This document shows, piece after piece, positions 3,838 through 43,855 of a DNA stretch of 64,000 bases; within the stretch, counting starts at the first letter, position 1, and each line of letters opens with the position of its first letter. The notes beneath the pieces are model-generated. The model was not told where the DNA came from. It saw nothing but the letters and a program-made list of their open reading frames with translations, and ran no database searches. The position numbers and the translations under genes were made by a program. The DNA is taken from contig CAZTRG010000149.1 of the NCBI GenBank assembly GCA_964615885.1, forward strand, positions 2,903 to 66,902, read 5' to 3'. Source of the stretch: an uncultured Planctomycetia bacterium (GTDB taxonomy: Bacteria; Planctomycetota; UBA8108).

Positions 3838-5618
3838 GTAAAACCACCTACAGGCGCAAGGCAATCCTGTCTCGAATTCACAATGCCCTGAACGCCTTCT
3901 ACCTGCTCCAGAAAATCGACTGGAAATACAACATTGCCGAGAGCCTCGAAAAGATCCTCGGCCTTGCCCTGGAAGAAATCGAGCTGGATGGGGAGAAGAC
4001 CATCGAGCGCGCCCTCATCATCGTACAGAACCCCGGGGGAGAAGATCTCGAGGTAAAGGCCGGCTGGAAAACAGACGGAGCAGATCTCAGCTTCAGCCAT
4101 ACAGTCGTGCAGGAGACCTTTGAGCGCGGCCAGCCCATACTTTGCGAAAACGCCAAGGACGATCCGCGCTTCATGAATGCCGAGAGCCTCAAACAGATCG
4201 AGACCCTGTCGCTGATTGCTGTACCGATGCAGTACGAGGAGCGATCCGTCGGGGTCTTCTATGTCGAAAGCGAATCTGCAGGCAACGTATTCAATTCCGA
4301 TGACCTTGAATTCCTGCAGGAGTTCGCAACGACCATCACCCCCTACGTCAAGTTCGGGCTCACCCACCAGGGCCATGTGCAGGAAATTCGCAAGCTCCAG
4401 GAAGCTGTCAGCGGACGCTACGATATGGGTAATATCATCGGCAGGAGCGAAGCGATCACAGGGGTCTTCGAGCTGGTTCGAATTGCGGCCGACGTCGACC
4501 GCACTGTCCTGATCACCGGGGAGTCAGGATCAGGCAAGGAGTTGATCGCCAACGCCATCCACCACAACGGCCGGCGCAAGACAGCCCCCTTCATCGTCGT
4601 AGACTGCTCGGGGCTCTCCGAACATCTCCTCGAAAGCGAGCTCTTCGGCCACCTCAAGGGAGCCTTTACCGGCGCCGGCAATGACAAGACGGGGGCCTTC
4701 GAAGAGGCCAGCGGCGGCACGATCTTTCTCGACGAGATCAAGGACGCCTCCAGGAGCCTGCAGCAGAAGCTGCGCAGGGTTCTGCAGGAGGGAGAGATTC
4801 GGCGGGTCGGTGAAAACACCGCCCGCAAGGTGGATGTCCGGGTCATCTGTGCAACCAACGAAGATCTTGGTGAGCGGGTGCAGTCCGGTGACTTCATCCA
4901 GGACCTCTACTACAGGGTCAACAAGTTCCCCATTCATGTCCCCTCTCTGAAGGAGCGGCGTGAAGACATCCCGCTGCTGGTAGCCCACTTTCTTCGCCTG
5001 ATGGACCAGGCCGAGCCACAGGACAGCTCCACCGAGATCAGCCCGGACGCCATGGAGGCACTGGTTCACCATGACTGGAGCAAAAACAACATCAGGCAGC
5101 TTCGCAATACTGTTGAGCTGGCTCGAGATCTCGCTGAAGGCGACACCATTGATCTCCCCATCCTGGAGAGGGTCCTGCGGATACAAAGCGGGGAGAGTCC
5201 CGGCCTCCTTACCCCGGGACCGGCAGGTGCTGATGAACTTGACCCTGGTTGCCTGGTGAGAATCAACAGTGAGGAGTTCGGAAGCCTGCTGGAAAAGGAG
5301 ACCGCCCGTAGTCCTGAAGACAAGCGTGAGCGGGGCGAGACCCCCTTCTACCGTCTCCAGTCGGAATTCCAGGCCAGGGCCATCACCGAGGGCCTGCGCT
5401 CCTGCAGGTGGAAGATCAGGCCTGCCGCCCGGCTGCTGGGGATCAGCCCGATGAAGCTGCGCACAGCCCTGAAGGACTACCTGGAGTTTCTGCTCAGAAG
5501 CCGGGTCAGGGACCTTGAGCAGGCGGCCGGGGAGCTTGATATCCCACTCGAGGTGCTGCAGAAAAAAGCGAAGGACTTCGGACTCGAGGGCCTGGAGACA
5601 GGGGAGGAGGTCTCATGA
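3834..5618 (+). CDS. Sigma-54-dependent transcriptional activator with N-terminal GAF domain and C-terminal Fis-type HTH
   Basis: AAA+ sigma-54 interaction motifs [15 protein letters not shown] and GAFTGA. N-terminal GAF-like region. C-terminal HTH ([16 protein letters not shown]). 4-nt ATGA overlap with the upstream kinase gene. Confidence 0.85.
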
Positions 5619-12878: not shown

Positions 12879-15447
<2,569 letters not shown>

Positions 15448-33618: not shown

Positions 33619-33656
33619 CCCTGCCCGGCGGCTCATTGCCCGGGCAGGGGTTTTTT
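33619..33656 (+). terminator. Rho-independent terminator (hairpin CCCTGCCCGG / CCGGGCAGGG plus T6) between convergent genes
   Basis: 10-bp perfect stem 33619-33628 / 33640-33649 followed by TTTTTT 33651-33656. Abuts the stop codon of the minus-strand gene 33655..34209. Confidence 0.8.
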
Positions 33657-34209
33657 ATTTCGCAGGAGAACCGGATACCCCCCGGGCCTCCCAGATCACC
33701 TCGGCCCGCAAGACACGGCCGGTCACTGGCAGGCCCTTGTCGACCTCCTCGTCAAGAATCACGGCCTGCGCGCAAACCCCCGGCGGAAGAAAGCCGGCCT
33801 TGAGCGGCAACTTCCCGGGAGCTTCTGCCAGGTCCTCCCGGCTCCAGGCCAGGACGATTCCTCCGTGTGAACCGGGCCCCCTGACCCTGACTCTCCGGCT
33901 GGAGATCCTGCTGACTGCGATACCGGTCCAGACCAGGGGAGGAGACAGGTCTCCCGCAAACAGGGCTGCCAGGCCCAGCTCGTTGACCCCGACAGCTGCC
34001 TTCGTGCCAAGCAAGGCCTCCGCCTCCGCAAGGGCCTCTGCACAGCGGACCTTTTCACCCTGCTCACCCCCCATCCGCCCATGGAGCCCATCGACCATTC
34101 CCTGGGCCAGCTGCAGGCAGCCCTCCAGGGCCTCTCCGCCGCCGGGCCGCCAGGCAGCAGGAAGCTGCCCGGCAATCATGAGCTGATCAGAGCTTTCCGT
34201 CCGCCTCAT
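33655..34209 (-). CDS. Phage P2 gpI-like / TssG-like baseplate wedge protein (CIS component)
   Basis: 184 aa, immediately downstream of and overlapping (ATGA) the gpJ-like gene. Weak similarity to tail protein I (LLP..., ...GT.aAv motifs). Assignment mostly by conserved J-I gene order. Confidence 0.4.
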   Translation of the reverse strand: MRRTESSDQLMIAGQLPAAWRPGGGEALEGCLQLAQGMVDGLHGRMGGEQGEKVRCAEALAEAEALLGTKAAVGVNELGLAALFAGDLSPPLVWTGIAVSRISSRRVRVRGPGSHGGIVLAWSREDLAEAPGKLPLKAGFLPPGVCAQAVILDEEVDKGLPVTGRVLRAEVIWEARGVSGSPAK

Positions 34210-36542
34210 GAGTGGCTCCTGTCTTCGACTGCAGGTTCATCGACCACCTGCTCACACTCAATTTCAACGCCCTCAAGAACACCCACAGCGATGGGAAGGT
34301 CAAGGGCAACGGCAGAATCCAGCGATGATTCCACCCGCAACGTGAACCCGGCTTGCCCGCCGGCCTCACGGAGGATTTCTCCTGCAACAGCACGAACCTG
34401 CTCGCCCCCTAGCTCTGTCACCAGGGGGCACCCCTTCCCTGCTCTTCCACCGCTAAGGGGGTCCAGGTAGCTCTGCAGGCAGGAGGCGAGCCGCTCTCCC
34501 AACCGGGAGACGTCCCGGGCTGCCTCCCCGCTGCGGTCTGTCACACCGAGGTAAACCTTGAAGGGAATCCGCATGGGCTCGACGACCTGGACAACCGTTC
34601 CAAGAGGGACCCTTCGCTGCAGGTAACGCTGCAGCGCTCCCAGGCGCCGGGCTCCCAGTGGCTCAAAACAGGACCCGGCATCAGCCTGCGCAAGGACTGC
34701 TCCCCAGGCAACGACCCAGACCTCCGATGGGCGAAGCGGATGCGCAACGACCTCTATCCTCGAAAGCGATGGATCAAGCTTGCGCAGCAGCCTGTCATAA
34801 TCAGCTCCGCTGACCAGCGTCCCACCGTCGGACTGTTCGGCTGCGAGCCGGCGGTAGAAATGGGCTCCGTTCTCACCCTCCGATCCATCCAGGACCGGAA
34901 CCGGCTGCGAAATGCGCTCGAGACCTTCCACCTCCAGCTCGAGAACATCCAGGCTGTCACGAGGCATGCTCCCTGCCCGGCCGATCCCTGTCCGCAAGCC
35001 CTCGATGCTGGCCTTCACCGGCCCATCGAGAGCCATCCCTGCTATCACCTCTACCTCACCACCGGATTTTCTGCGCAGGCAAAAGCCCTCCGGACCGGGG
35101 GCACCCGTGCCCTCCTCCAGCCTGAGAGTTTTCCAGCCACCTTCGAGGGACAGCTGCAGAGAATCAAAGGGCTCGAAATCGCCTTCCGGATGAGGCGGCA
35201 GCTCCGCCACCGAGCTCCTGAACTGGAGGCTTGCAGGCTGGCTTCCGACCCTGCGGCCCTCGACCACCTCAACTGCACCGGGAACCAGTGTCCTGACCAG
35301 TGCCGGGCTGAAATAGAAGCCGCTGGACCAGCAGGCCCGCACCCAGTAAAGGTCCCTGCCGAAGAGTCTCCTGCGACTCCAGCCCTGCGGCGCCTGCCAG
35401 GATACCGTTCCACTTCCTGTAAAGGCCCGGGTGCCATCGGCCACCTCCAGCTCCCGGAAGGAGTCCTCACAGGAAAACTCCCATTCCAGCCCCGGCCGTC
35501 CGTTCTCCAGGCCGGCCCCGATTCCACCTGAGAGCCAGTACAGGCTGGCCGGCTGCGGTTGATCCCAACCAAGATAGACTGCCGGTGAGTGGCGCTGTGA
35601 CATCGTCCCCAGCTCAAGACCGCCATCGCCAGAGAAGGAATGATCCTGCCACGAATCTCCCGAATGGATGAAAAGGCGCGCAGGGGGACGATCGACAAGC
35701 TTCTTCTGTTTTGATTTCCTGTCTCGCCTCAGGAGCCAGACCACCGTTGGAGTTGCCAGCGAAACAGGGGCTCTCCTGGGCAGTCGAAGACGGATCCATG
35801 GAGAGTCGAAGCCCTCGATCTCGCGGCTTGTCATATCCGGCAGGGGACCATGGATTCTCATGCGCAGCAGGGGTTCGCCTGCGATATTGCAGCTCTGGCT
35901 GAAATCAACCGGCAGCAGCCTCCAGCCGGCACCGCAGGAATACTCCCATTCGCCTTCCAGCACCGCCTGCGGCGTACCCGGCCACTCGAGTACCAGCTCG
36001 GCCTTGTGGCGCCTGAGCTGATCCCACTCGGCATCGCCGAGATAGAGATGATGGTGGAGCCGGTCAGAGCCGAAGAGCCTGACAGGAGCTTCCCCTTCTC
36101 CATCGACGGGAAGCTGCCGGGCCAGGTCTCCCTCGAGCACCACTGCATGCTCCAGGCGGGCCGTGGAAACCCAGCCATCCGCTGCTGTCTCAAAGTAGAC
36201 CCGTCCCTCCGCAGCTGTCTTGCGGGAGGCGGTTAGAGCTGTTGCCGCCGGAACCTTTACGGCCCCCTGCAGCCCTTCGCCCGGATGGAATTTGACCGCC
36301 GAGCTTGCGGCAAGCGGCCAGGAGGGCTCGTGACCGAGCTCCGCCAGCAGGCGTGGCAGGATACGCCCGGTACTTTCAGCCAGCTCACCCTCCAGGCGGG
36401 CAAGCACAACAGCAAAGCTCTCCAGCACGGCCCGGGCAGGATCCCCGGGTCCCCGGGCCGCCCAGTCCGGAATGCGTGCAGCAGCAGCCCTCTCGAGCTC
36501 CCGAAGAGCTTCCCGTTCCCGGCCGTCCTGGGGGTCCTGCAT
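34206..36542 (-). CDS. Baseplate J-like protein (P2 gpJ / T4 gp6 / TssF-like) of a contractile injection system
   Basis: N-terminal Baseplate_J-like region (DPARAVLESFAVVLARLEGEL..., FETAADGWVSTARL). Size 778-790 aa typical for Afp11/Pvc11-like proteins. Start ambiguous: GTG 36578 (ORF track), ATG 36566, or ATG 36542 (chosen, GGTGGAG RBS, no overlap with gp25). Confidence 0.7.
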   Translation of the reverse strand: MQDPQDGREREALRELERAAAARIPDWAARGPGDPARAVLESFAVVLARLEGELAESTGRILPRLLAELGHEPSWPLAASSAVKFHPGEGLQGAVKVPAATALTASRKTAAEGRVYFETAADGWVSTARLEHAVVLEGDLARQLPVDGEGEAPVRLFGSDRLHHHLYLGDAEWDQLRRHKAELVLEWPGTPQAVLEGEWEYSCGAGWRLLPVDFSQSCNIAGEPLLRMRIHGPLPDMTSREIEGFDSPWIRLRLPRRAPVSLATPTVVWLLRRDRKSKQKKLVDRPPARLFIHSGDSWQDHSFSGDGGLELGTMSQRHSPAVYLGWDQPQPASLYWLSGGIGAGLENGRPGLEWEFSCEDSFRELEVADGTRAFTGSGTVSWQAPQGWSRRRLFGRDLYWVRACWSSGFYFSPALVRTLVPGAVEVVEGRRVGSQPASLQFRSSVAELPPHPEGDFEPFDSLQLSLEGGWKTLRLEEGTGAPGPEGFCLRRKSGGEVEVIAGMALDGPVKASIEGLRTGIGRAGSMPRDSLDVLELEVEGLERISQPVPVLDGSEGENGAHFYRRLAAEQSDGGTLVSGADYDRLLRKLDPSLSRIEVVAHPLRPSEVWVVAWGAVLAQADAGSCFEPLGARRLGALQRYLQRRVPLGTVVQVVEPMRIPFKVYLGVTDRSGEAARDVSRLGERLASCLQSYLDPLSGGRAGKGCPLVTELGGEQVRAVAGEILREAGGQAGFTLRVESSLDSAVALDLPIAVGVLEGVEIECEQVVDEPAVEDRSHS

Positions 36543-36555
36543 ATTCTCCACCGAT

Positions 36556-36918
36556 TCAGCGCACATTGTTTTTCTCACCCTGGAGGCTGAAGGTTAAATT
36601 CATCAAGCCCCCCCCGCCCTCCAGGCTCACCTGGATTTTCCCGTCCCCGGCAGCCAGTATTTTCACCCGGCGAACTCCGGCCCAGGGGGCCCACTCACCC
36701 AGGGCCTCTTCAATAAAAACCGCGGCGAGCTGCCGCTCATGCTGTGTTTCAATTTTCCCCATGCTGTGTACCCGGCACCCGAAGGAAGGCAGCAGCGGAC
36801 GCTCTCCAGGCTGAACCTCAAGAATAAGCCGCAACCTCTCTTCCACCAGCCGGCCGTCTGCTTCCAGCTCCCGGGTCCCTGCGAAGAAGGCGTCCACGGT
36901 CTCAACCCTGCCGACCAT
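36556..36918 (-). CDS. gp25/GPW-like baseplate wedge protein (TssE/Afp9-like)
   Basis: MVGRVETVD...ILEVQPGERPLLPSFGCRVHS...IEEALGEWAP matches the GPW_gp25 signature. ATG at 36916-36918 with AGGGAGGTG RBS. The longer ORF-track N-terminus (to 37383) overlaps the hub gene in another frame and is artefactual. Confidence 0.8.
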   Translation of the reverse strand: MVGRVETVDAFFAGTRELEADGRLVEERLRLILEVQPGERPLLPSFGCRVHSMGKIETQHERQLAAVFIEEALGEWAPWAGVRRVKILAAGDGKIQVSLEGGGGLMNLTFSLQGEKNNVR

Positions 36919-37792
36919 CTTCACCTCCCTTCCAGCGCTCAAGATCGACACCGTTTTCGAGATAATCAACCCGGGTGCGGTAACCGAGCCTGTCCCAGCA
37001 ATGCCGCGCCCTGGCCACCCTGTAGCGCCCCACAGCCAGGCGACCCCGGCCCACGATGTCAAACTCCTGCAGCGGAAGCCAGCCGGGATCTCCGGCGAGC
37101 TCGAAGAAGCCGCCCTTACCCCGTGATGAATGCTCCTCGATGACAAATTCAAGCACACGGTCATCTGCGTACAGCACTCCTGCACAGGGGGGCAGGCCGG
37201 GAACATCGGCTCCAGCCGGCAAGCTCGCAGAGAAGTAGAGCCTGCCGGCGGTAACCGCAAGCTCATACCCGATCGCCCTCGCCCGCTGTCGCAGGAATTC
37301 CAGCCTTTCACCCGGGCATTCAACCAGCTCGAGGACCTCCGTGGTTGGCTCGACAGCCGGCTGCAGCCCCAGCTCACGGGCAAACATACCGGCCAGCTCC
37401 GAATCGCAGTGGTGGTAAAAAGTCTGCGGCTCGTGGAGAAGGGATGCTTCCCGCTGGTGGCAATGAGCCCTCAGCAATCCCACCGTTCCAGCACGGTCCC
37501 GCTTCAGTCCGCGGTCACGAATCCGGCCGCGGAAGAGGGGACCGGACGGCAACTCGATGACCAGCTCAGCGCCGGGAACCAGGGAGTCGAGCACCTCCTC
37601 CACTCCCGGAGAGGCGCCGTCGGCGGCAAATAAGATCTCCAGGTGGTCAAAGCCGTCGGCCTGGAGAAAAACCTCGCAGCCCAGGAGCGTCGTCCCGGAG
37701 GGGAGAACAGAGCAAACCGGCAGCTGCTGCTGGCCTGGAGCCAGCTGCAATCCGGAGGAGCTGGTTGGATAAACCCGTGTTTTCTCGATCAT
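36902..37792 (-). CDS. Phage late-control gpD / gp27-like baseplate hub protein (short, no recognisable gp5-like spike extension)
   Basis: 296 aa. C-terminal GRYRVARARHCWDRLGYRTRVDY fits the VgrG/gpD hub motif (GxYxVxxVxHxxxxxxYxNxF). Position between tube genes and gp25 is as in eCIS/P2. Confidence 0.55.
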   Translation of the reverse strand: MIEKTRVYPTSSSGLQLAPGQQQLPVCSVLPSGTTLLGCEVFLQADGFDHLEILFAADGASPGVEEVLDSLVPGAELVIELPSGPLFRGRIRDRGLKRDRAGTVGLLRAHCHQREASLLHEPQTFYHHCDSELAGMFARELGLQPAVEPTTEVLELVECPGERLEFLRQRARAIGYELAVTAGRLYFSASLPAGADVPGLPPCAGVLYADDRVLEFVIEEHSSRGKGGFFELAGDPGWLPLQEFDIVGRGRLAVGRYRVARARHCWDRLGYRTRVDYLENGVDLERWKGGEDGRQG

Positions 37793-37820
37793 GCGCTCAG
37801 CCCATCTGCTCTCGGCCTGT

Positions 37821-38234
37821 TCATCCTCTCATCTCCAGTCGAACCAGGCCGCGAACAGGAGTTCCATCGGGGTCGAAACGAACCCAGTCCTCCTCGATCC
37901 GGTCGATATAGCCTGTAAACCGAAAAGGTCCCCAGAGAAAAACGACCTTCGCAGGAGGGCCGCCCGGCGATTGCGGATCCATCCAGCCTTCGAGCTTCTC
38001 GGCAATCTCGCGCAGGTTCCGCTCATCCAGCGGACGACGGGTCGAGTCGAGGAAGAGCTCGGTTGAAAAACGTTCTTCGCAAGCACCGCTCAGCGCGGCC
38101 TGCATGCCCGCCGGGGCAAGCTGGTTTTTCTTCGAGAGTGAATACTTGGCCGGGTTCCAGTCAACCGTCACGGTCTCCATGCTGCCGAGATCGGTCAGCT
38201 CCGCCTTGACCAGTCCGTTCAGTTTTTCTTCCAT
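37821..38234 (-). CDS. Hypothetical CIS-associated protein (between tube and hub genes)
   Basis: 137 aa, overlaps the tube gene by 16 nt. Conserved-looking C-terminus VVFLWGPFRFTGYIDRIEEDWVRFDPDGTPVRGLVRLE. No family assigned. Confidence 0.35.
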   Translation of the reverse strand: MEEKLNGLVKAELTDLGSMETVTVDWNPAKYSLSKKNQLAPAGMQAALSGACEERFSTELFLDSTRRPLDERNLREIAEKLEGWMDPQSPGGPPAKVVFLWGPFRFTGYIDRIEEDWVRFDPDGTPVRGLVRLEMRG

Positions 38235-38638
38235 CTTAATCCTTCGTAGACGATCTCCAGTTTTTCGAGCGCGATCTCCGGGTCCCGTGCATCCAGTGGT
38301 GGGCCTTTCCAGCTGACCGCCAGGGCGCTGTGAAAACTCCAGCGCATGCTCTCCTTGCCATCCTCATCGAGGAGCACAACGGCGCCGCTGCGCGGCAGTG
38401 CATCCTGGTACCAGTTCCAGAGCTCCGCATCGCGGGTCAGGCCACGCTCGAGCACCAGCCTTCCTGTCGAGGGGCCATCCTCAAAGAACTCGACCCTGTC
38501 GGAGCCGCCTTCGCGGTACTCCAGGACCTCGCGACTGCTCTCGAGTCCCGAGCAGCTGACAAAACCAGCCGTCGAAACCCCCTCGAGCTCGAGATCAAAG
38601 CGATCACCTCTCAGCAATTCCTTCAGCAGCACTCTCAT
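38219..38638 (-). CDS. Contractile-system tube protein, T4 gp19 / Hcp-like (Afp5/tube-initiator-like)
   Basis: FDLELEGVSTAGFVSCSGLESSREVLEYREGG...GRLVLERGLTRDAELWNW matches the conserved phage-tail-region tube signature. GGGAGA RBS. Confidence 0.8.
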   Translation of the reverse strand: MRVLLKELLRGDRFDLELEGVSTAGFVSCSGLESSREVLEYREGGSDRVEFFEDGPSTGRLVLERGLTRDAELWNWYQDALPRSGAVVLLDEDGKESMRWSFHSALAVSWKGPPLDARDPEIALEKLEIVYEGLRWKKN

Positions 38639-38665
38639 GCCTGGAATCTCCCTGTGCGAAAAGCT

Positions 38666-39175
38666 TTATTCACCGGCAACCTCTCCATCGCTGACCCGCT
38701 CCAGCCTCTCGACTACCAGCTCCAGGGTCTCAATACTGATTTCTTCTCCGCTTATATCCAGCAGGGGCCCCTCGTAACGGCAAGGCCAGGCAGCGTAAAA
38801 GTTCCACCTGGCCGTCTCTCTCAGGGCCGCATCCAGCAGCACGATCGAGCCGTTGCGGAGATCCTCTTCCCCCTCCTCAATACCTTTGCGCCAGAGGTAA
38901 AATGCATCGGAGGTCGTAACTCCCCTCTTGAGGAGGATATTGCCGTAGACGGCCCGCCCGGGAATCTGCATTGCTGTTGCCTGGTTACCTACCCTGTACT
39001 CCAGCACCTCTGAACGGGAAACCAGCCCGCTCACTTCACGAAAACTTCCGGCAAGGTCTCCGCCGCCTTCTCCAAGGCCATCGACCTCGACGAGAAAATT
39101 GCAGTTGGCGGTCAATTCGAAGGCCTGCCGCGACTGCTTCGGTTCAAGTTGTGTCCCTGGTTTCCTGATGACCAT
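38666..39175 (-). CDS. Contractile-system tube protein, T4 gp19 / Hcp-like (Afp1-like)
   Basis: FLVEVDGL...GSFREVSGLVSRSEVLEYRVGN...YGNILLKRGVTTSDAFYLWR matches the tube signature. Start codon overlaps the stop of the upstream gene (ATGA). Confidence 0.85.
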   Translation of the reverse strand: MVIRKPGTQLEPKQSRQAFELTANCNFLVEVDGLGEGGGDLAGSFREVSGLVSRSEVLEYRVGNQATAMQIPGRAVYGNILLKRGVTTSDAFYLWRKGIEEGEEDLRNGSIVLLDAALRETARWNFYAAWPCRYEGPLLDISGEEISIETLELVVERLERVSDGEVAGE

Positions 39176-40143
39176 CAGCTTACCGACTCCTCCAGGACAG
39201 CGCTGCCGGCAGGAAGAAGCTGTTCCACCTCGACCCCATCGCAGGTATCCATTCGCGTCCGAACAGCGATGGACAATCTGCGCTCAAAGCCCTCTGCCCC
39301 ATCCTCCGGGTCACCCACCAGCGACACCTTCAGCTCAAACCCCTTTCGAAAGGGCAGGAATCCATCGACGGCCAGGCTGTGAAGGAAAGCCCTCACCTCC
39401 CGCTCAAGCTTCCGCAGAAGAACCTCTGAGGCGTACTCGAATACTGTCCAGCGAGTCCCTGTCTCCAGTGAACGGCGAAGCCCCTGGCGGCGGCGCCAGG
39501 TCACCAGGGCACGCAGCTCATCGGGGAAGGGAAGAAGGTCTCCCTCCCCTCCGATCCCGCTGCGAATCGCCAGGCTTGACCTCTGGAGTGCAGAGGGTGT
39601 TCGAAGGGGGAAAAAGTCCCTGGCCTCCAGGCAGCCGGCAAGGCAGGCCGCCGAAGGTTTCCCGGGAACCTTTGCCTCCAGGACAGCCAGGTTAGGCAGC
39701 GGTCTCCGCAGGCAGGCTCCAGGCTCTCCACCAGCCTGCTGCCCGCTTCCTCCCACCACCTGGCAGCACAGCAGCAGCATTGGATGCTGCAATGCAAAAT
39801 CTTCAAGTAAGCCGGTTGCCTCGGGCCTCACCGGCGGCAGGACCACCGTACCGACCTCATCCCTGCCGGCCAGCTCGTACAAACCGGAGCACTCCCCGGG
39901 GGCTCCCGGCTCACCAAGCAGCTGCGAGAGGGCCTCCTCGTCAAGCACTCCATCCCTGTATCCGGCTTCGGTGGAGAGAGAGAGGGGCTCCAGGAGAAGC
40001 TCCAGCCCGCCTCCGCCGGTAAAGTCCTCCACCAGGGCTTTCTCCTGCGCAGCTGTTTCTTCCAGGCCCGGAGCTCTCAGCAGGACCATGGCAGTCTTGC
40101 CGCAGCCAGTCCAGGTCAGAGAACCCTGATGAGAAATCGACAT
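39175..40143 (-). CDS. Putative contractile sheath protein (short, about 322 aa)
   Basis: ATG at 40141-40143 with GGGGAGGAG RBS, 4 nt after the cap-gene stop. Position cap-X-tube-tube as in eCIS loci. C-terminus WTVFEYASEVLLRKLEREVRAFLHSLAVDGFL...FELKVSLVGD resembles the sheath C-terminal domain pattern (W.vFE...FL..L..G.L....F.v.cd). The first 106 codons of the ORF-track model are an out-of-frame overlap artefact. Confidence 0.45.
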   Translation of the reverse strand: MSISHQGSLTWTGCGKTAMVLLRAPGLEETAAQEKALVEDFTGGGGLELLLEPLSLSTEAGYRDGVLDEEALSQLLGEPGAPGECSGLYELAGRDEVGTVVLPPVRPEATGLLEDFALQHPMLLLCCQVVGGSGQQAGGEPGACLRRPLPNLAVLEAKVPGKPSAACLAGCLEARDFFPLRTPSALQRSSLAIRSGIGGEGDLLPFPDELRALVTWRRRQGLRRSLETGTRWTVFEYASEVLLRKLEREVRAFLHSLAVDGFLPFRKGFELKVSLVGDPEDGAEGFERRLSIAVRTRMDTCDGVEVEQLLPAGSAVLEESVS

Positions 40144-40147
40144 AATT

Positions 40148-40765
40148 TTACTCCTCCCCTTGCTTGAGAACCCGCTCGAGGCGAACCTCTCTTTCAAGAA
40201 CCCTCTCCACTGTCTTGTAGTTTTGCGAGACCACCGGCAATGACACCTCGAAGCTGATCCCGAGGTGATGACGGGGAAGTCCCAGCTCCCGCCAGGCATC
40301 CCTGTCTTCGACGATCTCAACAGGAAGCTCAGCCATCTCGAGGCCCACCTCCTTGCCCAGGAACTCCTCCATCTCCCCCACCGGCAACAACGCGATGGAA
40401 TGAAGAAGCTGAAGCACCGCCTCGACTGAGCCCATCTCCTCCTGGGGAGTCGCCTCCACAATCATGAAAACGTAGCGCAGGCTGACCCAGAGGGCTCCAC
40501 CGCGGCTGCGGCCCGGCAGCCCGGCCTCCTGCGCCGGCTGCATCCGGGCTCCGGCCTGCCGGTACCTGGCAGCGGGAGAAACCCGCTGCAGGTAGAGAAC
40601 CCCCCTGGCCCCGTATTCGACATCATCCCCTGCTCCCCGGGGCGGAAGATCAATCGGATGACAGAGATAGACAGGAATCTCCTGCTGTTGAGCCGTTCCA
40701 CGAACCGCCTCCTCAAGGCGAATCGCCAGGTAACGGCTCAGATCGTAGAAATCCCCTGGCCTCAT
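40148..40765 (-). CDS. DUF4255-like protein (putative tail terminator/cap, Afp16/Pvc16-like)
   Basis: 205 aa, immediately upstream of the sheath candidate. Weak motif similarity (IPVYLCHPIDLPP..., GVLYLQRVSP versus the DUF4255 N-terminal/LFLYDIRE pattern). Confidence 0.45.
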   Translation of the reverse strand: MRPGDFYDLSRYLAIRLEEAVRGTAQQQEIPVYLCHPIDLPPRGAGDDVEYGARGVLYLQRVSPAARYRQAGARMQPAQEAGLPGRSRGGALWVSLRYVFMIVEATPQEEMGSVEAVLQLLHSIALLPVGEMEEFLGKEVGLEMAELPVEIVEDRDAWRELGLPRHHLGISFEVSLPVVSQNYKTVERVLEREVRLERVLKQGEE

Positions 40766-40831
40766 GGAATTAACCTCCCTCCCCGGGAGCCCATGCAGGG
40801 CCTCTCACTGGAATACCACGCTGCTGTTGGT

Positions 40832-41329
40832 TCAGCCCGAATCATTCTCAATACCCATCCCTTGTCGCCTGCTCATTGCTCCATCCATGTACTCATCAAC
40901 AAGAGCATGGATCGAGGTGAATGAAAAATTACCTGTCCGTCCTTCCCCACCGGCCGCCTTGCGGATCGGCACGTAGCTACCATCCCTGCACGCTACCCCG
41001 AGAAGCTCCACCGCTTCTTCAGAACCGCTTCCCAGGAGCTCAGTGGCAGCCACCGCACCGTGGAGACTGTTGTGAAAACGAAAGCTCCCCCGGGGAGTTT
41101 CGATCACGAATTCCAGCCCATCCAGCAACCGGGAGCCGGGAGCCTGCACCTCGTCGGCCTCTGCAGGATCCGCCACGGCACCTCTTGTCCTGAAGGCCAA
41201 CTCAAGATTCCTGAAAAAACGTCCAAGCGCCTGGGCGTGCCCCCGCGGAACACCCGGCTCCAGGACGGAATGGTTTCTCCCCGCAGGAACCGAAAAGGCC
41301 TTCGCTATGGTTGGCCGAAGAGCTCTCAT
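40832..41329 (-). CDS. Hypothetical protein in CIS operon
   Basis: 165-aa ORF between the FHA gene and the cap candidate, same strand, short intergenic gaps. No family recognised. Confidence 0.35.
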   Translation of the reverse strand: MRALRPTIAKAFSVPAGRNHSVLEPGVPRGHAQALGRFFRNLELAFRTRGAVADPAEADEVQAPGSRLLDGLEFVIETPRGSFRFHNSLHGAVAATELLGSGSEEAVELLGVACRDGSYVPIRKAAGGEGRTGNFSFTSIHALVDEYMDGAMSRRQGMGIENDSG

Positions 41330-41360
41330 TCTCTACACTGTCCTTCTCGATTGCATTGCT

Positions 41361-43094
41361 TCACGGCACAGCTCTCCCACCACCATCGACCAGCGCGGCT
41401 CCCCCTGCCCCCTCCAGGAGCAGGCGGGCTCCCAGGTCCTCCAGGAGAGCCTCCTTCTCCAGCAATCGCTGCCTCACATCGTCTGCATATTTCCTCAGCA
41501 GGACCAGCTCTTCTGAACGACTTGATTCGCTGTCGCGGAGGCCATCGAGCTGCGCTTCCTGGTCCCGGCGCTTTTTCTCGGCAGCCACCAGGCGCCCCTG
41601 CAGAAGCTCGATCTCGCGCTGGAGGCGTTTTTCTGCTTTCTCTCTTTCGCGGCCGTAGAAGGCAAGCTCCCGGTTCACCTTCCTGTACTTTTCCTCGCTC
41701 CGGGCAAGTGCAGCCGCCTGGGTATCCATCGTCTGCTGAAGCTCCGTGGTACCCGAGCTGAGCAGCTCCAGCTCTTTTTCAATCTCCCCGCAACGCAGCC
41801 TGCACCCGGCACCGTCGGTCCGCTCCTGCTCAAGCTCTTCCTGCATGCGCAGGGCCGATTGCCTGCCGCTATCGGACTCCGCAAGGGCTTCTGCAAGCTG
41901 GGCCGCCTGTTTTTCAAGCTCGGCCCGGCTGCCCTTCAGCTCTGCCGTCATTCGTTCTTTCTCAGCCTGCAGGCTCTTGATGTTCTTCCGGTAGGCGCTG
42001 CTGAGGTCCTGCTCGGTCTCCTCCAGGCGTTTACGATTCTCTTCCTCCTGGCTGGCAAGCTCACTGCGATGATGGTGGGAATCCTGCTTCCTTTCAGCCA
42101 GGAGCGAATCAAGCTCACTGCGAAGACCGGCGAGCTCTGCACGAAGACCGATGGTGATCTCACGTTCCTTCTCGAGCTCGCCAGCGCTCGACTCAAGGCG
42201 GCGGTTCAGCTCAGCCTGGCCCGATACTGATTCAGTAAGCTTGCCTGTTTCTTCAAGCAAGAGACTGCTCACATCTGCCTGCCCTGCCTCTGCCTCACCC
42301 AGCTTCACCTGCAGATCCTGGACCTCCTGCTGCGCTACCTCTGCCTCACCCAGCTTCACCTGTAGATCCTGGACCTCCTGCTGCGCTGCCTGCAGAGATT
42401 CCATGGAATCAGCGAGCTGCTGCTGGTGATTCTCCGCCTGCTCGGCCAGCTCCGACTGAACCGCCTCCAGCTCTTTCTGCAGCTTGCCGTCCCGCGCCCG
42501 AGGCCTCCCTGGCTCTGCAGGCTGTCCTGCCTCGACCCTGGAAAGCTCATCCCTGGCTTCCTCCAGCTGGCTCTCCAGCCGGCCCCTGGCAGCCATGACG
42601 CTTTTCAGGCCGGCCACCAGCCGCTTCTTCTGGTCCAGGCGCTGGGCAAGCTTCTGGCTGAGCTCCTCGTTCTGCCGGGTCAGCCGCGCCCGGGCCTTCT
42701 CAAGCTCGACCTTCTTGGCCTCCGCAGCCTTCGCACGCCTCAGCAAGGCCCGGTCGGCCCCCGAAGCGCCTGGAGAGCTGCCTCCCGCACTCCCGGTATC
42801 AGGAATCACCGACAACCTTGTACCCCCGACCCGCAGAAGATCACCTGTTCGAAGACTTGCACGATCGACCGGCCGCTCATTCAGGAAGGTACCCCTGGAG
42901 CTCCCCAGGTCTTCGACCACCACCTCATCGCCCTCCTTCTGGAGGCGGGCGTGGCTTGGAGAAACCAGGGAATCGCTGATACACAGCTCACATTCACCGG
43001 CGCTGCCGATATCGATGGAATCCCGCAGAGGAAAGACCTTTCCTCTAAACTCTCCATTCAATACCCGCAGCATGAAACCTTCAGAGACTTTCAT
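41361..43094 (-). CDS. FHA-domain protein with about 450-aa coiled-coil C-terminal region
   Basis: N-terminal FHA (GKVFPLRDSIDIGSAGECELCISDSLVSPSHARL...GSSRGTFLNERPV). The remainder is heptad-rich, Glu/Leu/Gln/Arg-rich coiled coil with an in-frame 51-bp tandem duplication. First gene of the minus-strand CIS block. Confidence 0.8.
   Translation of the reverse strand: MKVSEGFMLRVLNGEFRGKVFPLRDSIDIGSAGECELCISDSLVSPSHARLQKEGDEVVVEDLGSSRGTFLNERPVDRASLRTGDLLRVGGTRLSVIPDTGSAGGSSPGASGADRALLRRAKAAEAKKVELEKARARLTRQNEELSQKLAQRLDQKKRLVAGLKSVMAARGRLESQLEEARDELSRVEAGQPAEPGRPRARDGKLQKELEAVQSELAEQAENHQQQLADSMESLQAAQQEVQDLQVKLGEAEVAQQEVQDLQVKLGEAEAGQADVSSLLLEETGKLTESVSGQAELNRRLESSAGELEKEREITIGLRAELAGLRSELDSLLAERKQDSHHHRSELASQEEENRKRLEETEQDLSSAYRKNIKSLQAEKERMTAELKGSRAELEKQAAQLAEALAESDSGRQSALRMQEELEQERTDGAGCRLRCGEIEKELELLSSGTTELQQTMDTQAAALARSEEKYRKVNRELAFYGREREKAEKRLQREIELLQGRLVAAEKKRRDQEAQLDGLRDSESSRSEELVLLRKYADDVRQRLLEKEALLEDLGARLLLEGAGGAALVDGGGRAVP
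42287..42388 (-). repeat. In-frame 51-bp tandem duplication (2 copies, 2 mismatches) inside the FHA/coiled-coil gene
   Basis: Copy 1 at 42287-42337 and copy 2 at 42338-42388 (cctctgcctcacccagcttcacctg[c/t]agatcctggacctcctgctgcgct[a/g]c). Encodes AQQEVQDLQVKLGEAE twice. Confidence 0.85.
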
Positions 43095-43123
43095 GCGTCC
43101 TCTTCACTTCTGAATCTTCACTC

Positions 43124-43855
43124 TTGAATCTTCACTTCAATTTTTCACCGGGGCTGACCCGGCAGGGGATTCAGGCCTGCAGTTTAGCGTTTAGCCGCCT
43201 GGGATGGAAGTTTGAAACTGCCCCCACAGAGCCTTCAACAAAGCCCCACACCCCGTTTGCCACCCGGCAGGGAACGGTATATAACCCACCTGTGAATCCG
43301 CAACAGACTAGCACCCCGGTTCATTGCCCCAACTGCGGACACCCCGTAGACCGCCAACCCATCCATTGCACCGTCTGCGGATATCAAAGCCAGTCGGTTA
43401 AAGAGTACTTCTGGATGTATCTCGGCGGCGGCGTGCTGATCCTGCTGGGGGCACTTCATGTGGTGCTTGGAACACTCTCACAGGACTCCAGGCAGGACCA
43501 TTGGAGCCGTTTATTTTCAGGCTGGTATCCCCTGGGGCCCTGGCCTGCAGATTCAAACTGGTTCGCGATTGTGCTCCTTGGGATCGCACTGACCCTGATT
43601 GGACTGGGCTTCACCAGGCACTTCAAATCGTCTTTTTACGCAGGAATCGTTCTTTTCGGCTGGCAAATTTTATGCGCCGGAAAAAAACTCCTCTCAGGCT
43701 CCCCTGAAAACACAGCCCGTTTCACTGTCTTATCTGCACTGATCCTTGAAGTCCTTTTACTGCTATTGGTTATACGGATAGGTATGGCTCTCAAAAGGAC
43801 ACCCGGGAGAGAAATCGACCGCCTCCAGAGAGGGCCTCAAAAAGCTGAAGAATAG
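43124..43855 (+). CDS. Zn-ribbon-containing integral membrane protein (about 4 TM helices)
   Basis: CPNCGHPV...CTVCGY zinc ribbon followed by hydrophobic helices (YLGGGVLILLGALHVVLG, FAIVLLGIALTLIGLGF, etc.). Divergent from the CIS operon. True start uncertain (could be internal). Confidence 0.45.
   Translation: MNLHFNFSPGLTRQGIQACSLAFSRLGWKFETAPTEPSTKPHTPFATRQGTVYNPPVNPQQTSTPVHCPNCGHPVDRQPIHCTVCGYQSQSVKEYFWMYLGGGVLILLGALHVVLGTLSQDSRQDHWSRLFSGWYPLGPWPADSNWFAIVLLGIALTLIGLGFTRHFKSSFYAGIVLFGWQILCAGKKLLSGSPENTARFTVLSALILEVLLLLLVIRIGMALKRTPGREIDRLQRGPQKAEE

What the first reader, a model, noticed from the sequence alone, without database searches (positions are those of the whole stretch)
33655..43094. 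Compact phage-tail-like contractile injection system locus led by an FHA/coiled-coil gene and lacking ATPase, tape measure, spike tip and fibres
Eleven co-directional, tightly packed genes (several ATGA or 4-17 nt overlaps) encode a near-minimal contractile machine. In transcription order: FHA plus coiled coil, unknown 165 aa, DUF4255-like cap, a 322-aa sheath candidate, two gp19/Hcp-fold tube proteins, unknown 137 aa, a 296-aa gpD/gp27-like hub, gp25/W, gpJ (gp6/TssF-like) and gpI (TssG-like). This is the conserved tube, sheath and minimal baseplate core. In about 9.4 kb I find no Afp14-like tape measure, no Afp15/ClpV-like AAA+ ATPase, no PAAR or gp5 beta-helix spike, no tail-fibre or LysM protein, and no phage head, integrase or lysis genes. 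Known eCIS, T6SS-iv and tailocin loci are typically 15-30 kb and carry most of those parts. Pairing an FHA-domain gene (reminiscent of T6SS Fha/TagH) with an eCIS-like gene order is unusual. The architecture may represent an undescribed, stripped-down CIS lineage, or a CIS whose remaining parts are encoded elsewhere.
Basis: partly seen in the sequence, partly recalled or inferred. Interest (0 to 1): 0.9.

Follow-up and report, generated by a model that had tools for sequence, protein, structure and literature searches.

The report
Miniature contractile injection system in Planctomycetota
This is a real, unusually small phage-tail-like contractile machine that a group of mostly marine Planctomycetota carry at one fixed chromosomal position; beside the locus it has no assembly ATPase, piercing spike, tape measure or fibres, and it always starts with an FHA/coiled-coil gene.

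Summary
Window 33655-43094 (minus strand) holds 11 tightly packed genes: FHA/coiled coil, a 165-aa frataxin-like protein, a Cis16/Pvc16-type cap, a 322-aa sheath, two gp19 tubes, a Cis7-type tube initiator without LysM, a gp27-only hub, gp25, a gp6/Cis11-like wedge, and an unassigned 184-aa protein.

No AAA+ ATPase, gp5/PAAR spike, LysM, tape-measure-position gene, fibre, toxin, lysis or phage gene lies in the 64-kb window. None flanks the locus in relatives either. A canonical relative scanned the same way shows all of these parts.

The operon sits at the same chromosomal position (MoaE/ThiS ... TSP_3) across deeply diverged Planctomycetota. All genes are under purifying selection.

Sister lineages keep three extra genes: a small gene between the two tube genes, a tape-measure-position gene and a PP2C phosphatase. 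The window clade is therefore the most reduced form.

Missing tape measure, fibres and PAAR have precedents in Streptomyces and haloarchaeal systems. The missing ATPase and spike, the conserved FHA/coiled-coil plus 165-aa pair, and the vertical inheritance are the new points.

Verdict: a new variant of a known kind. Parts encoded elsewhere in the genome cannot be excluded.

The parts
43095..43260 (-). Conserved non-coding region upstream of the operon. It holds promoter-like hexamers (TTCCAT, 17 nt, TAAACT), a CCGG(G)-N-CCGG hairpin, and three tandem 14-nt repeats (GAAGTGAAGAnnCn) that run into GAAGTGAAGAGGACGC-ATG.
   Evidence: Mean identity is 78% with long invariant blocks across 9 marine-clade loci. 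Sister lineages have TTGACC/T-N17-TAGACT/TACACT and one GAAGTGAG(G)AGG copy before the ATG. Function is inferred only. The consensus promoter scan found nothing and Rfam has no match.
41361..43094 (-). g01: 577-aa FHA domain (residues 1-100) plus about 450 aa of coiled coil. No transmembrane segment. The ends are conserved and the middle varies in length.
   Evidence: Pfam Yop-YscD_cpl 8e-18 and FHA 7e-15. GarA FHA domain 7e-11. Conservation profile and hydropathy. Orthologs lead the operon in all related loci, at 558-1120 aa. A 51-bp tandem duplication lies at 42279-42391.
40832..41329 (-). g02: 165-aa lineage-specific protein. It has a conserved but unstructured N-terminus followed by a helix, five strands and a helix (frataxin/Nqo15-like sandwich). 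Role unknown.
40148..40765 (-). g03: 205-aa Cis16/Afp16/Pvc16-type tail terminator cap, N-terminal domain only.
   Evidence: Pvc16_N 7.8e-5, below the gathering score. Orthologs carry precomputed PF14065 hits. The profile hits S. coelicolor Cis16 chain 9gts_0A at 1.7e-5. The canonical relative is 308 aa with an extra C-terminal domain.
39175..40143 (-). g04: 322-aa contractile sheath (295-348 aa in relatives).
   Evidence: The profile hits sheath C-domains: 9ezm 2.4e-7, 8bky 2.6e-6. AlphaFold pLDDT 74, pTM 0.77. Foldseek: pyocin R2 sheath 4e-6, H. borinquense sheath 9e-5, Afp sheath 1e-3. The profile also hits the sheaths of canonical loci.
38666..39175 (-). g05: 169-aa inner tube protein (Cis1 by position).
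   Evidence: Phage_T4_gp19 5e-32. TIGR02241 7e-25. The profile hits Salmonella eCIS, AlgoCIS, tCIS and Afp1/Pvc1 tubes.
38219..38638 (-). g06: 139-aa second tube protein (Cis5-type adaptor by position). It is the most conserved gene of the operon.
   Evidence: Phage_T4_gp19 7e-27. CIS5_fam 2.6e-20, below cutoff. dN/dS 0.015 against L002.
37821..38234 (-). g07: 137-aa Afp7/Cis7-type tube initiator without a LysM domain.
   Evidence: CIS_tube PF19266 1.5e-12. The canonical relative is 229 aa with CIS_tube plus LysM.
36902..37792 (-). g08: 296-aa gp27-like baseplate hub without a gp5 OB-fold or needle.
   Evidence: The profile hits a Pvc8-like chain at 1e-7 and AlgoCIS chain 7aef_q at 3e-5, colinear with residues 53-341 of 533. 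It also hits the gp27-type hub ORFs of canonical loci. gp25 follows with a 14-nt overlap, so no spike ORF fits.
36556..36915 (-). g09: 119-aa gp25/TssE/Cis9 sheath initiator.
   Evidence: GPW_gp25 1.5e-7, above the gathering score.
34206..36578 (-). g10: 786-790-aa gp6/Afp11/Cis11-type wedge protein. Public calls of close orthologs are 786 aa, which would put the start at the ATG at 36566.
   Evidence: T6SS_TssF N-terminus 1.4e-5 and Baseplate_J 1.9e-4. TIGR02243 7e-16. S. coelicolor Cis11 chain 9gtp_1K 3e-9. NCBI names an ortholog TssF.
33655..34209 (-). g11: 184-aa conserved protein in the Cis12/gpI position. Family not established.
   Evidence: Orthologs occur in the marine clade, L031 and L102, but not in L097. 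No hit in Pfam, NCBIfam, PDB sequences or canonical loci, and hhalign to a Tail_P2_I protein is not significant.
43124..43855 (+). Divergently transcribed zinc-ribbon protein with a predicted membrane segment. The true start is probably near 43295. It is a possible, unproven accessory or membrane anchor.
   Evidence: Zn_ribbon_3 2.8e-5. Strong hydrophobic segment. It is conserved next to the operon in the marine clade and L102, but absent in L097 and L103.

Best explanation
The locus encodes a functional, miniaturised contractile injection system of the Afp/PVC-like superfamily. Among solved systems it is closest to the lineage II kind typified by the Streptomyces cytoplasmic CIS. It has become a fixed, vertically inherited chromosomal feature of a group of Planctomycetota.

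Shown:
- Nine structural genes give a cap, a one-protein sheath, a tube, a tube adaptor, a tube initiator, a gp27-only hub, gp25, a gp6-like wedge and one unassigned wedge-position protein. Each is trimmed to its core domain.
- Two lineage-specific proteins always head the operon: the FHA/coiled coil and the 165-aa alpha/beta protein.
- No ATPase, spike, PAAR, LysM, fibre, toxin or lysis gene is linked to the locus in any lineage examined.
- Sister lineages add a small gene between the two tube genes, a disordered protein in the tape-measure position, and a PP2C phosphatase. The window clade has lost all three.

Inferred:
- With no fibres and no lysis genes, the particle probably works inside the producer cell or at its membrane, not as a released, target-binding particle.
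- The soluble FHA/coiled-coil protein, perhaps together with the 165-aa protein, is the adaptor that places the machine or gates its assembly or firing.
- That control was ancestrally exercised through Ser/Thr phosphorylation (FHA plus PP2C, as in the T6SS Fha/PppA pathway).
- In the window clade the PP2C gene is gone, and two of the three canonical phosphothreonine-contacting residues are replaced. The FHA domain may therefore act there as a phosphorylation-independent docking module.
- Without an Afp15-type ATPase or a needle, cargo loading and membrane piercing must differ from Afp and PVC. What the machine delivers or does remains unknown.
For: - Component identities.
- Positive control: a canonical relative (L062, tube 45% identical) scanned with the same tool shows AAA+WHD ATPase, eCIS_core, Pvc16_N, Phage_sheath_1/1C, CIS_tube+LysM, Phage_GPD, Phage_base_V, PAAR and Baseplate_J. 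L099 shows the same kind of set, though no ATPase is seen in the stretch fetched. None of the missing parts occurs in the 64-kb window.
- Conservation: the same 11 genes in the same order occur in all marine-clade loci. dN/dS is 0.015-0.38 for all 11 genes.
- Vertical inheritance: flanks are conserved in the window clade (AspK, NAD synthase, PQQ_2, UDG ... TSP_3, NUDIX, aminotransferase). In lineages whose CIS proteins are only 30-50% identical, the conserved flanks are MqnC, GCV_T, AspK, NAD synthase, BamE, MoaE, ThiS ... TSP_3.
- The FHA/coiled coil and g02 lead the operon in L097, L102 and L103. The coiled-coil C-terminal motif is conserved in L015, L016 and L031.
- PP2C ends the operon in L031 and L102.
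- The extra sister-lineage genes are homologous to each other and absent from the window.
- None of the 11 proteins has a transmembrane segment.
- The upstream non-coding region is conserved.
- Precedents for fibre-less, tape-measure-less intracellular or membrane-bound CIS: PMC10066040, 10.1101/2024.06.25.600559, PMC11566945.
Against: - Only 64 kb of this genome, and at most about 20 kb around each relative, could be read. An ATPase, spike, PAAR, effectors or a kinase may be encoded elsewhere. Split CIS loci are known (Amoebophilus; PMC6899500).
- In the alignment to GarA, the FHA domain has Ser in place of the canonical Arg of the GR motif in every member. The marine clade also has Arg or Leu in place of the Asn of the NG motif. 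Phosphothreonine binding is therefore doubtful.
- The window locus has no PP2C, and the only kinase in the window is 30 kb away.
- g11 and g02 have no assigned role.
- The AlphaFold models are of moderate confidence (pLDDT 74 and 70).
- There is no expression, imaging or localisation evidence.
- Because the synteny extends to housekeeping genes, adjacency of the zinc-ribbon and TSP_3 genes does not show that they belong to the system.
Confidence: 0.5

Rival explanations
1. It is a conventional eCIS whose other parts (Afp15-type ATPase, gp5/PAAR spike, effectors, perhaps fibres) are encoded at one or more other loci in the genome. The 11-gene operon would then be only the core module.
For: - Split CIS loci exist (T6SSiv of Amoebophilus; PMC6899500).
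- More than 85% of eCIS-like loci carry Afp15.
- In lineage II subtypes IIa-c, gp27 and gp5 are already separate ORFs, so a gp5 gene could move away.
- Only 64 kb of the genome is visible.
Against: - No such gene lies within 20-30 kb on either side in the window.
- None lies within 10 kb in L001, L097, L102 or L103, although the operon itself has stayed intact and syntenic over deep divergence.
- The nearest canonical relatives examined keep all their parts in one cluster.
Confidence: 0.25
2. It is a T6SS-like, membrane-anchored cell-to-cell weapon. The baseplate would be docked to the cytoplasmic membrane through the FHA/coiled-coil protein and the neighbouring zinc-ribbon membrane protein, and it would fire outward.
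For: - Haloarchaeal lineage II CIS work in this way, and their mode correlates with a conserved membrane protein encoded upstream of the cluster (PMC11566945).
- Streptomyces CIS need the membrane protein CisA.
- A zinc-ribbon membrane gene is divergently adjacent in the marine clade and L102.
- In T6SS, FHA proteins control assembly (my own knowledge of the Fha1/PpkA/PppA pathway).
Against: - There is no spike or PAAR to pierce an envelope and no toxin-immunity pairs near the locus.
- The zinc-ribbon gene is absent next to the operon in L097 and L103.
- No TssJLM, TssK or ClpV homologs are present.
Confidence: 0.15
3. The coiled-coil protein is the missing length ruler, that is, a functional tape measure. 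Its helical length would set the tube length.
For: - It is a long helical protein with conserved ends.
- The window clade has lost the gene in the usual tape-measure position.
Against: - Sister lineages carry both the coiled-coil protein and the tape-measure-position gene.
- The coiled-coil length varies from 558 to 1120 aa between lineages, and by tandem duplication within the window.
- A globular FHA domain is unlike known tape measures.
- Streptomyces particles have a uniform length without any tape-measure gene.
Confidence: 0.07
4. It is a prophage tail remnant, an R-type tailocin, or a decaying non-functional relic.
For: The tube, sheath and baseplate genes are of phage-tail ancestry.
Against: - There are no head, integrase, lysis, tape-measure or fibre genes.
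- The tube has no hit in 50,697 phage genomes, and the sheath family is absent from IMG/VR.
- The ORFs are intact and under purifying selection in many lineages.
- The locus sits at a fixed chromosomal position.
Confidence: 0.03

Closest known systems
Streptomyces cytoplasmic CIS (CIS-Sc, eCIS subtype IId)
   Same: - It lacks a fibre gene, a typical tape-measure gene and ClpV. S. coelicolor also lacks PAAR (PMC10066040).
- Its cap is a minimal one-protein Cis16.
- It gives the best solved-structure sequence matches for the wedge (Cis11) and the cap (Cis16), and close matches for the sheath C-domain.
- It works inside the producer cell.
   Different: - CIS-Sc sheaths are 534-539 aa against 322 aa here.
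- Its cluster has 19 ORFs against 11 here.
- It relies on the membrane protein CisA.
- It has no FHA/coiled-coil gene or g02-type gene.
- It is an actinobacterial locus, not a syntenic planctomycete one.
Canonical lineage II eCIS-like loci (for example L062 and L099 fetched here)
   Same: - The gene order is the same: cap, sheath, tube, tube, (tape-measure-position gene), Cis7, hub, gp25, wedge.
- The tube is 40-47% identical.
   Different: - The canonical loci add an AAA+WHD ATPase, an eCIS_core/DUF4157 protein, LysM on Cis7, a separate gp5 (Phage_base_V) ORF, PAAR and further downstream genes.
- Their parts are larger: sheath 384-683 aa, cap 285-308 aa, hub 360-404 aa, wedge 1004-1214 aa.
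- They lack FHA/coiled-coil, g02 and g11 homologs.
Haloarchaeal membrane-bound CIS (subtype IIa, 'archaeal T6SS')
   Same: - It lacks cis6, cis14 and cis19.
- A conserved membrane protein is encoded upstream of the cluster (PMC11566945).
- Its sheath C-domain is the best sequence match (9ezm).
   Different: [quoted passage not shown]
- It is carried on a plasmid and shows signs of horizontal transfer.
T6SS threonine-phosphorylation pathway (Fha, PpkA kinase, PppA PP2C phosphatase)
   Same: An FHA protein, and in sister lineages a PP2C phosphatase, are encoded in the same operon as a contractile machine.
   Different: - The machine here is of eCIS type: gp19 tube, single-protein sheath, Cis16 cap. 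It is not a TssBC/Hcp/TssJLM system.
- No kinase is linked to the locus.
- The FHA domain lacks the canonical Arg.
- The long coiled coil has no counterpart in Fha1, as far as I know.
R-type pyocin ('minimal contractile nanomachine')
   Same: - It has a small two-domain sheath and gives the best fold match to the sheath model (3j9r/3j9q).
- It has no ATPase (my own knowledge).
   Different: - The pyocin has a tape measure, a spike with tip, fibres and lysis genes, and it is released to kill other cells (my own knowledge).
- Its sheath is about 385 residues.

Membership tests
eCIS / Afp-PVC-like CIS superfamily (eight core subunit types of PMC6899500) | Afp1/5 gp19-type inner tube | tested here: met
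   Phage_T4_gp19 5e-32 and 7e-27. The profile hits the tubes of solved eCIS.
eCIS / Afp-PVC-like CIS superfamily (eight core subunit types of PMC6899500) | Afp2/3/4 contractile sheath | tested here: met
   No Pfam hit. The profile hits sheath C-domains at 2.4e-7, and the model matches the pyocin, haloarchaeal and Afp sheaths.
eCIS / Afp-PVC-like CIS superfamily (eight core subunit types of PMC6899500) | Afp7 tube initiator (CIS_tube domain, usually with LysM) | tested here: met
   CIS_tube 1.5e-12. The LysM part is absent, whereas the control L062 has it.
eCIS / Afp-PVC-like CIS superfamily (eight core subunit types of PMC6899500) | Afp8 hub, gp27-like part | tested here: met
   The profile hits a Pvc8-like chain at 1e-7 and AlgoCIS chain 7aef_q at 3e-5, and the hub ORFs of canonical loci.
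eCIS / Afp-PVC-like CIS superfamily (eight core subunit types of PMC6899500) | Afp8 spike, gp5 OB-fold/needle part (fused or as a separate ORF), and Afp10 PAAR tip | tested here: not met
   The hub ends at the equivalent of about residue 341-360 of a 533-aa Pvc8-like chain. gp25 overlaps the end of the hub gene. No Phage_base_V or PAAR is found in the window, whereas the controls L062 and L099 have both.
eCIS / Afp-PVC-like CIS superfamily (eight core subunit types of PMC6899500) | Afp9 gp25 sheath initiator | tested here: met
   GPW_gp25 1.5e-7, 31.6 bits against a cutoff of 27.2.
eCIS / Afp-PVC-like CIS superfamily (eight core subunit types of PMC6899500) | Afp11 baseplate J / gp6-like wedge | tested here: met
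   Baseplate_J 1.9e-4, at the cutoff. TIGR02243 7e-16, below cutoff. S. coelicolor Cis11 3e-9.
eCIS / Afp-PVC-like CIS superfamily (eight core subunit types of PMC6899500) | Afp15 AAA+ ATPase in the locus | tested here: not met
   None is found in the 64-kb window other than unrelated sigma-54 activators, PhoH and an STK-linked AAA_16 domain. None lies beside the operon in L001, L097, L102 or L103. The control L062 has AAA+WHD directly upstream. The rest of the genome could not be tested.
eCIS / Afp-PVC-like CIS superfamily (eight core subunit types of PMC6899500) | Afp16 / Pvc16 tail terminator cap | tested here: met
   Pvc16_N 7.8e-5, below cutoff. The profile hits S. coelicolor Cis16 at 1.7e-5. 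Orthologs carry PF14065.
eCIS / Afp-PVC-like CIS superfamily (eight core subunit types of PMC6899500) | Extracellular mode: tail fibres (Afp13) and a release mechanism | tested here: not met
   There is no fibre-like or lysis gene in the operon or the window.
Canonical type VI secretion system | TssB/TssC two-protein sheath, Hcp tube, TssK, TssA, ClpV | tested here: not met
   The sheath is a single 322-aa protein, the tube is of gp19 type, and no other T6SS family hit is found. The only T6SS match is a weak TssF N-terminal one (1.4e-5, below cutoff). NCBI nevertheless names an ortholog TssF.
Canonical type VI secretion system | TssJ/L/M membrane complex | tested here: not met
   None of the operon proteins has a transmembrane segment, and no such family is found in the window.
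R-type tailocin / prophage contractile tail | Tape measure, fibres, lysis cassette and similarity to phage tails | tested here: not met
   No such genes are present. There is no gene in the tape-measure position, because g06 and g07 overlap. The tube has no hit in 50,697 phages, and the sheath family is not in IMG/VR.
Streptomyces-type cytoplasmic CIS (subtype IId) | Fibre-less, tape-measure-less cluster with a minimal Cis16 cap | tested here: met
   compared.
Streptomyces-type cytoplasmic CIS (subtype IId) | Phylogenetic placement of Afp8/Afp11 within subtype IId | not tested
   No tree was built. The only indication is that the best solved-structure matches are CIS-Sc chains at low E-values.
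Streptomyces-type cytoplasmic CIS (subtype IId) | Cytoplasmic location and CisA-dependent firing | not testable with these tools
   This needs imaging and genetics. The neighbouring zinc-ribbon membrane protein is only a positional analogue.
P2 gpI / TssG / Afp12 wedge protein (for the 184-aa g11) | Sequence or profile similarity to Tail_P2_I, TssG or Afp12 | tested here: inconclusive
   No hit in Pfam, NCBIfam, PDB sequences or canonical loci. hhalign to a Tail_P2_I protein gives probability 0.06, although it aligns an N-terminal 'LP..Y' stretch.
Phosphothreonine-binding FHA domain | Canonical Arg (GR), Ser (SxxH) and Asn (NG) contact residues | tested here: inconclusive
   The fold-level match is clear. 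In the alignment to GarA, Ser and His are kept. The Arg is Ser in all members, and the Asn is Arg or Leu in the marine clade but kept in L097 and L102. Which residues contact the phosphate rests on my own knowledge.

The most novel reading that the evidence does not exclude
The 11 genes are the whole machine. That would make it the smallest self-sufficient contractile tail-like apparatus known: nine structural proteins of about 2,360 residues in all, assembling without an ATPase, tape measure or spike. It would be kept as a vertically inherited cellular device of Planctomycetota, placed or triggered by an FHA/coiled-coil adaptor. Its job would be something other than toxin injection from a released particle, such as controlled membrane rupture, cell death or vesicle release.
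Probability: 0.3. Interest if true: 0.85.

Novelty: new variant of a known kind. Interest (0 to 1): 0.62.

Why it matters
- It would define a further CIS lineage in a phylum for which no paper in the searched library describes a system of this kind.
- It would show which parts of a contractile machine are truly dispensable. Every component here is cut to its core domain.
- It would link an eCIS-type particle to FHA/PP2C-type control, so far known from T6SS.
- A CIS held at one chromosomal position across deep divergence points to a cell-biological role, not a mobile weapon.
- A 9.4-kb, 11-gene operon is a practical starting point for reconstitution and engineering of a minimal injector.

Tried and rejected
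- g11: Pfam, NCBIfam and PDB-sequence searches gave nothing, both with the single sequence and with every member of its alignment. The profile found nothing in the ORFs of canonical loci. hhalign against a Tail_P2_I protein was not significant.
- Reading beyond the window ends via its terminal genes failed, because those exact products are not on record.
- The sigma-70 promoter and terminator consensus scan was uninformative.
- Rfam found nothing in the window.
- RNAalifold proposed a long-range helix in the upstream region. I rejected it because its pairs never vary and one arm lies in the probable promoter.
- The prophage, tailocin and relic readings were rejected.
- Literature searches for a planctomycete CIS of this type found nothing relevant.

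Full report
**What is in the sequence.** Window 33655-43094 carries eleven minus-strand ORFs separated by at most 66 nt or overlapping by 1-23 nt. Nine of the products are on record with exactly these sequences in public gene calls. All carry only generic names such as 'hypothetical protein', 'phage tail-like protein' or 'FHA protein'. The locus is bounded by a divergently transcribed zinc-ribbon membrane-protein gene (43124-43855, +) and a convergent gene for a signal-peptide-bearing TSP_3-repeat protein (31548-33584, +). The rest of the 64-kb window is housekeeping: EF-G, PurA, CarA, SerS, QueA, Mdh, MqnC, GCV_T, aspartate kinase, NAD synthase, DnaK and leucyl aminopeptidase, plus two sigma-54 activators and one Ser/Thr kinase 30 kb away. 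No Rfam family matches.

**Identity of the eleven genes, in transcription order.**
- g01 (577 aa): an FHA/YscD-like domain (8e-18 and 7e-15) followed by about 450 residues of coiled coil.
- g02 (165 aa): no family.
- g03 (205 aa): Pvc16_N at 7.8e-5. Its ortholog profile hits the S. coelicolor Cis16 cap at 1.7e-5.
- g04 (322 aa): no Pfam hit. Its family profile hits sheath C-terminal domains (H. borinquense 2.4e-7, S. coelicolor 2.6e-6). Its AlphaFold model (pLDDT 74, pTM 0.77) matches the pyocin R2, haloarchaeal and Afp sheaths.
- g05 and g06: gp19-type tubes (5e-32 and 7e-27).
It is a CIS_tube (Afp7/Cis7) tube initiator (1.5e-12) without LysM.
- g08 (296 aa): its profile aligns colinearly with residues 53-341 of a 533-aa Pvc8-like chain, and with AlgoCIS chain 7aef_q. 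It also hits the gp27-type hub ORFs of canonical loci. It is the gp27 module only.
- g09: gp25.
- g10: a gp6/Afp11/Cis11-type wedge. TssF N-terminus 1.4e-5, Baseplate_J 1.9e-4, TIGR02243 7e-16, S. coelicolor Cis11 3e-9.
- g11 (184 aa): sits where Cis12/gpI would be, but no sequence test supports that label.

**What is missing, with a positive control.** A canonical relative (L062, tube 45% identical) was scanned with the same tool. It shows an AAA+WHD ATPase, an eCIS_core/DUF4157 protein, a 308-aa Pvc16_N cap, a 653-aa Phage_sheath_1/1C sheath, a 261-aa protein in the tape-measure position, CIS_tube+LysM, a 404-aa Phage_GPD hub, a 269-aa Phage_base_V protein, a 99-aa PAAR protein and a 1214-aa Baseplate_J protein. 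L099 is alike apart from the ATPase, which is not seen in the stretch fetched. None of the ATPase, DUF4157, LysM, gp5 or PAAR families appears anywhere in the window. The gene junctions leave no room for hidden ORFs. Every retained component is also shorter than its canonical counterpart:

| Component | Here | Canonical relatives |
|---|---|---|
| Sheath | 322 aa | 384-683 aa |
| Cap | 205 aa | 285-308 aa |
| Cis7 | 137 aa | 224-229 aa |
| Hub | 296 aa | 360-404 aa, plus a separate gp5 ORF |
| Wedge | about 790 aa | 1004-1214 aa |

For scale, the smallest phage sheath modelled in PMC9230969 is 341 aa, and Afp2 is 354 aa. Relatives of this sheath go down to 295 aa.

**Relatives and inheritance.** The sheath family has only 30 clusters among 5.8 billion proteins. 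In genome collections it is found only in Planctomycetota MAGs or unnamed 'uncultured bacterium' MAGs, several from ocean surveys (ALOHA, a 3000-m sample, Tara-type runs). All eleven genes occur in the same order in every such locus that is long enough. Window against L002 gives dN/dS of 0.015-0.38 for all eleven genes, lowest for tube 2. Flanking housekeeping genes are syntenic and 78-87% identical to L001, while the CIS proteins are 41-82% identical.

More distant lineages keep the same operon at the same chromosomal place. In these, the CIS proteins are 30-57% identical to those of the window, the tube being the most conserved.
- L097 has MoaE and ThiS upstream.
- L102 has PQQ_2, UDG, BamE, MoaE, ThiS and the zinc-ribbon gene upstream, and TSP_3 downstream.
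- L103 has MqnC, GCV_T, aspartate kinase, NAD synthase, BamE, MoaE and ThiS upstream.

This pattern indicates long vertical inheritance, not the mobility typical of eCIS. The g02 profile finds 89 clusters at 50% identity among 1.84 billion representatives, all small stand-alone proteins. The wider clade is therefore rare but diverse. Members from other metagenomes (L015, L016, L026-L035) show the same core order.

**The ancestral set and what this clade lost.** In L097, L102 and L103 the operon starts with an FHA/coiled-coil protein of 825, 1120 and 894 aa. In L015, L016 and L031 the contig cuts off the N-terminus of that gene. What remains is coiled coil with the same C-terminal motif (L+xY(V/L)DD(V/L)+xxL). 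Every one of these loci has a g02 homolog next. Sister lineages carry three further genes:
- an 87-116-aa protein between the two tubes;
- a largely disordered protein of about 190-330 aa between tube 2 and Cis7, the usual tape-measure position, ending in a conserved W..RGF-type motif;
- in L031 and L102, a PP2C phosphatase as the last gene.

The first two are homologous among sister lineages and have no counterpart anywhere in the window. The window's clade is therefore the most reduced form of a 14-gene ancestral system. No lineage shows a linked ATPase, gp5, PAAR, LysM or fibre gene.

**Regulatory region.** The roughly 165 nt upstream of g01 are 78% identical across marine-clade loci, with long invariant blocks, even where the encoded proteins are only 40-80% identical. 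They contain promoter-like hexamers (TT[CT]CAT, 17 nt, TA[AC]ACT; sister lineages have TTGACC/T-N17-TAGACT/TACACT). A small hairpin follows, and then three tandem 14-nt repeats GAAGTGAAGAnnCn (four in L005 and L024) that end at the ribosome-binding site. L097 and L102 keep one copy. The function of this region is inferred only.

**Interpretation.** The locus is a real and functional CIS of the Afp/PVC-like superfamily. It meets seven of the eight core subunit types of PMC6899500, with Afp8 reduced to its gp27 half, and fails on Afp15. Among solved systems it is nearest to lineage II machines: Streptomyces CIS-Sc for the wedge, cap and sheath C-domain, and the haloarchaeal CIS for the sheath. 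Those systems already show that fibres, a recognisable tape measure and even PAAR can be absent, and that such machines act inside the cell or at its membrane.

What remains distinctive:
- there is no linked ATPase in any lineage;
- there is no needle or tip at all;
- every part is miniaturised;
- the FHA/coiled-coil plus g02 module is conserved, with a PP2C in sister lineages;
- the chromosomal position is fixed.

I infer an intracellular or membrane-associated machine whose placement, assembly or firing depends on the FHA/coiled-coil adaptor. That control was ancestrally exercised through Ser/Thr phosphorylation and is possibly phosphorylation-independent in the window clade. The payload and the cellular role are unknown.

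**Limits.** Only 64 kb of this genome, and about 20 kb or less around each relative, were readable. Both structure-prediction jobs went to the sheath and g02, so the hub, g11 and any complexes were not modelled. No phylogenetic tree was built. No expression or imaging evidence exists in what I could search. No paper in the searched library describes a planctomycete CIS of this kind.

Noticed in passing
window 43095-43260 (minus-strand sense); also L001-L009, L023, L024 upstream of the FHA gene: The non-coding leader of the operon is very strongly conserved. It holds promoter-like hexamers, a CCGG hairpin, and three or four tandem 14-nt repeats GAAGTGAAGAnnCn directly before the start codon. 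One copy survives in the distant lineages L097 and L102. It could be an operator or a binding site for an RNA-binding regulator. It matches no Rfam family.
   Followed up: partly
window 42279-42391: A 51-bp in-frame tandem duplication (2.2 copies, 93% matches) lies inside the coiled coil of the FHA gene. It coincides with the region where orthologs differ by insertions and deletions.
   Followed up: partly
window 38219-38638: The second tube gene is far more conserved than the rest of the operon: dN/dS 0.015 and 98.6% amino-acid identity to L002, where the other proteins are 73-95% identical. This is unexpected for a presumed adaptor present in few copies.
   Followed up: no
window 31548-33584 (+): A 678-aa protein with a signal peptide and TSP_3 (thrombospondin type 3) repeats lies convergent to the operon. 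It is 59-92% identical in the marine clade and is still adjacent in the distant L102. Whether it is functionally linked or merely syntenic is unknown.
   Followed up: partly
L031 4983-5966; L015 4075-5040; L097 7581-8336; L102 about 13570-14120: Sister lineages encode a largely disordered protein of about 190-330 aa in the tape-measure position. It has a conserved N-terminal region and a C-terminal W..RGF-type motif. In L102 the ORF is not called in the public annotation.
   Followed up: partly
L098 9389-17039; L100 9392-15644: Unrelated orphan baseplate modules occur without a nearby sheath or tube: a 63-aa Lar-like zinc-finger protein, gp25, a roughly 1005-aa Baseplate_J protein, a Tail_P2_I protein and a roughly 518-aa protein. 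In L098 a 405-aa FHA protein follows. FHA proteins may be associated with contractile baseplates more widely.
   Followed up: no
window 130-5618 (+): A 1235-aa Ser/Thr kinase with AAA_16 and TPR domains is followed, with overlapping stop and start codons, by a GAF-containing sigma-54 activator. It lies 30 kb from the CIS locus. No link to the locus was tested.
   Followed up: no
L041 10796-11020; L044 10738-10956; L038 10709-10921: Canonical lineage II loci share a conserved roughly 70-aa ORF (GYPL..LYEEVAF.AY.FHW) just after the second tube gene. It is not homologous to the 87-116-aa inter-tube protein of the FHA-led clade.
   Followed up: no
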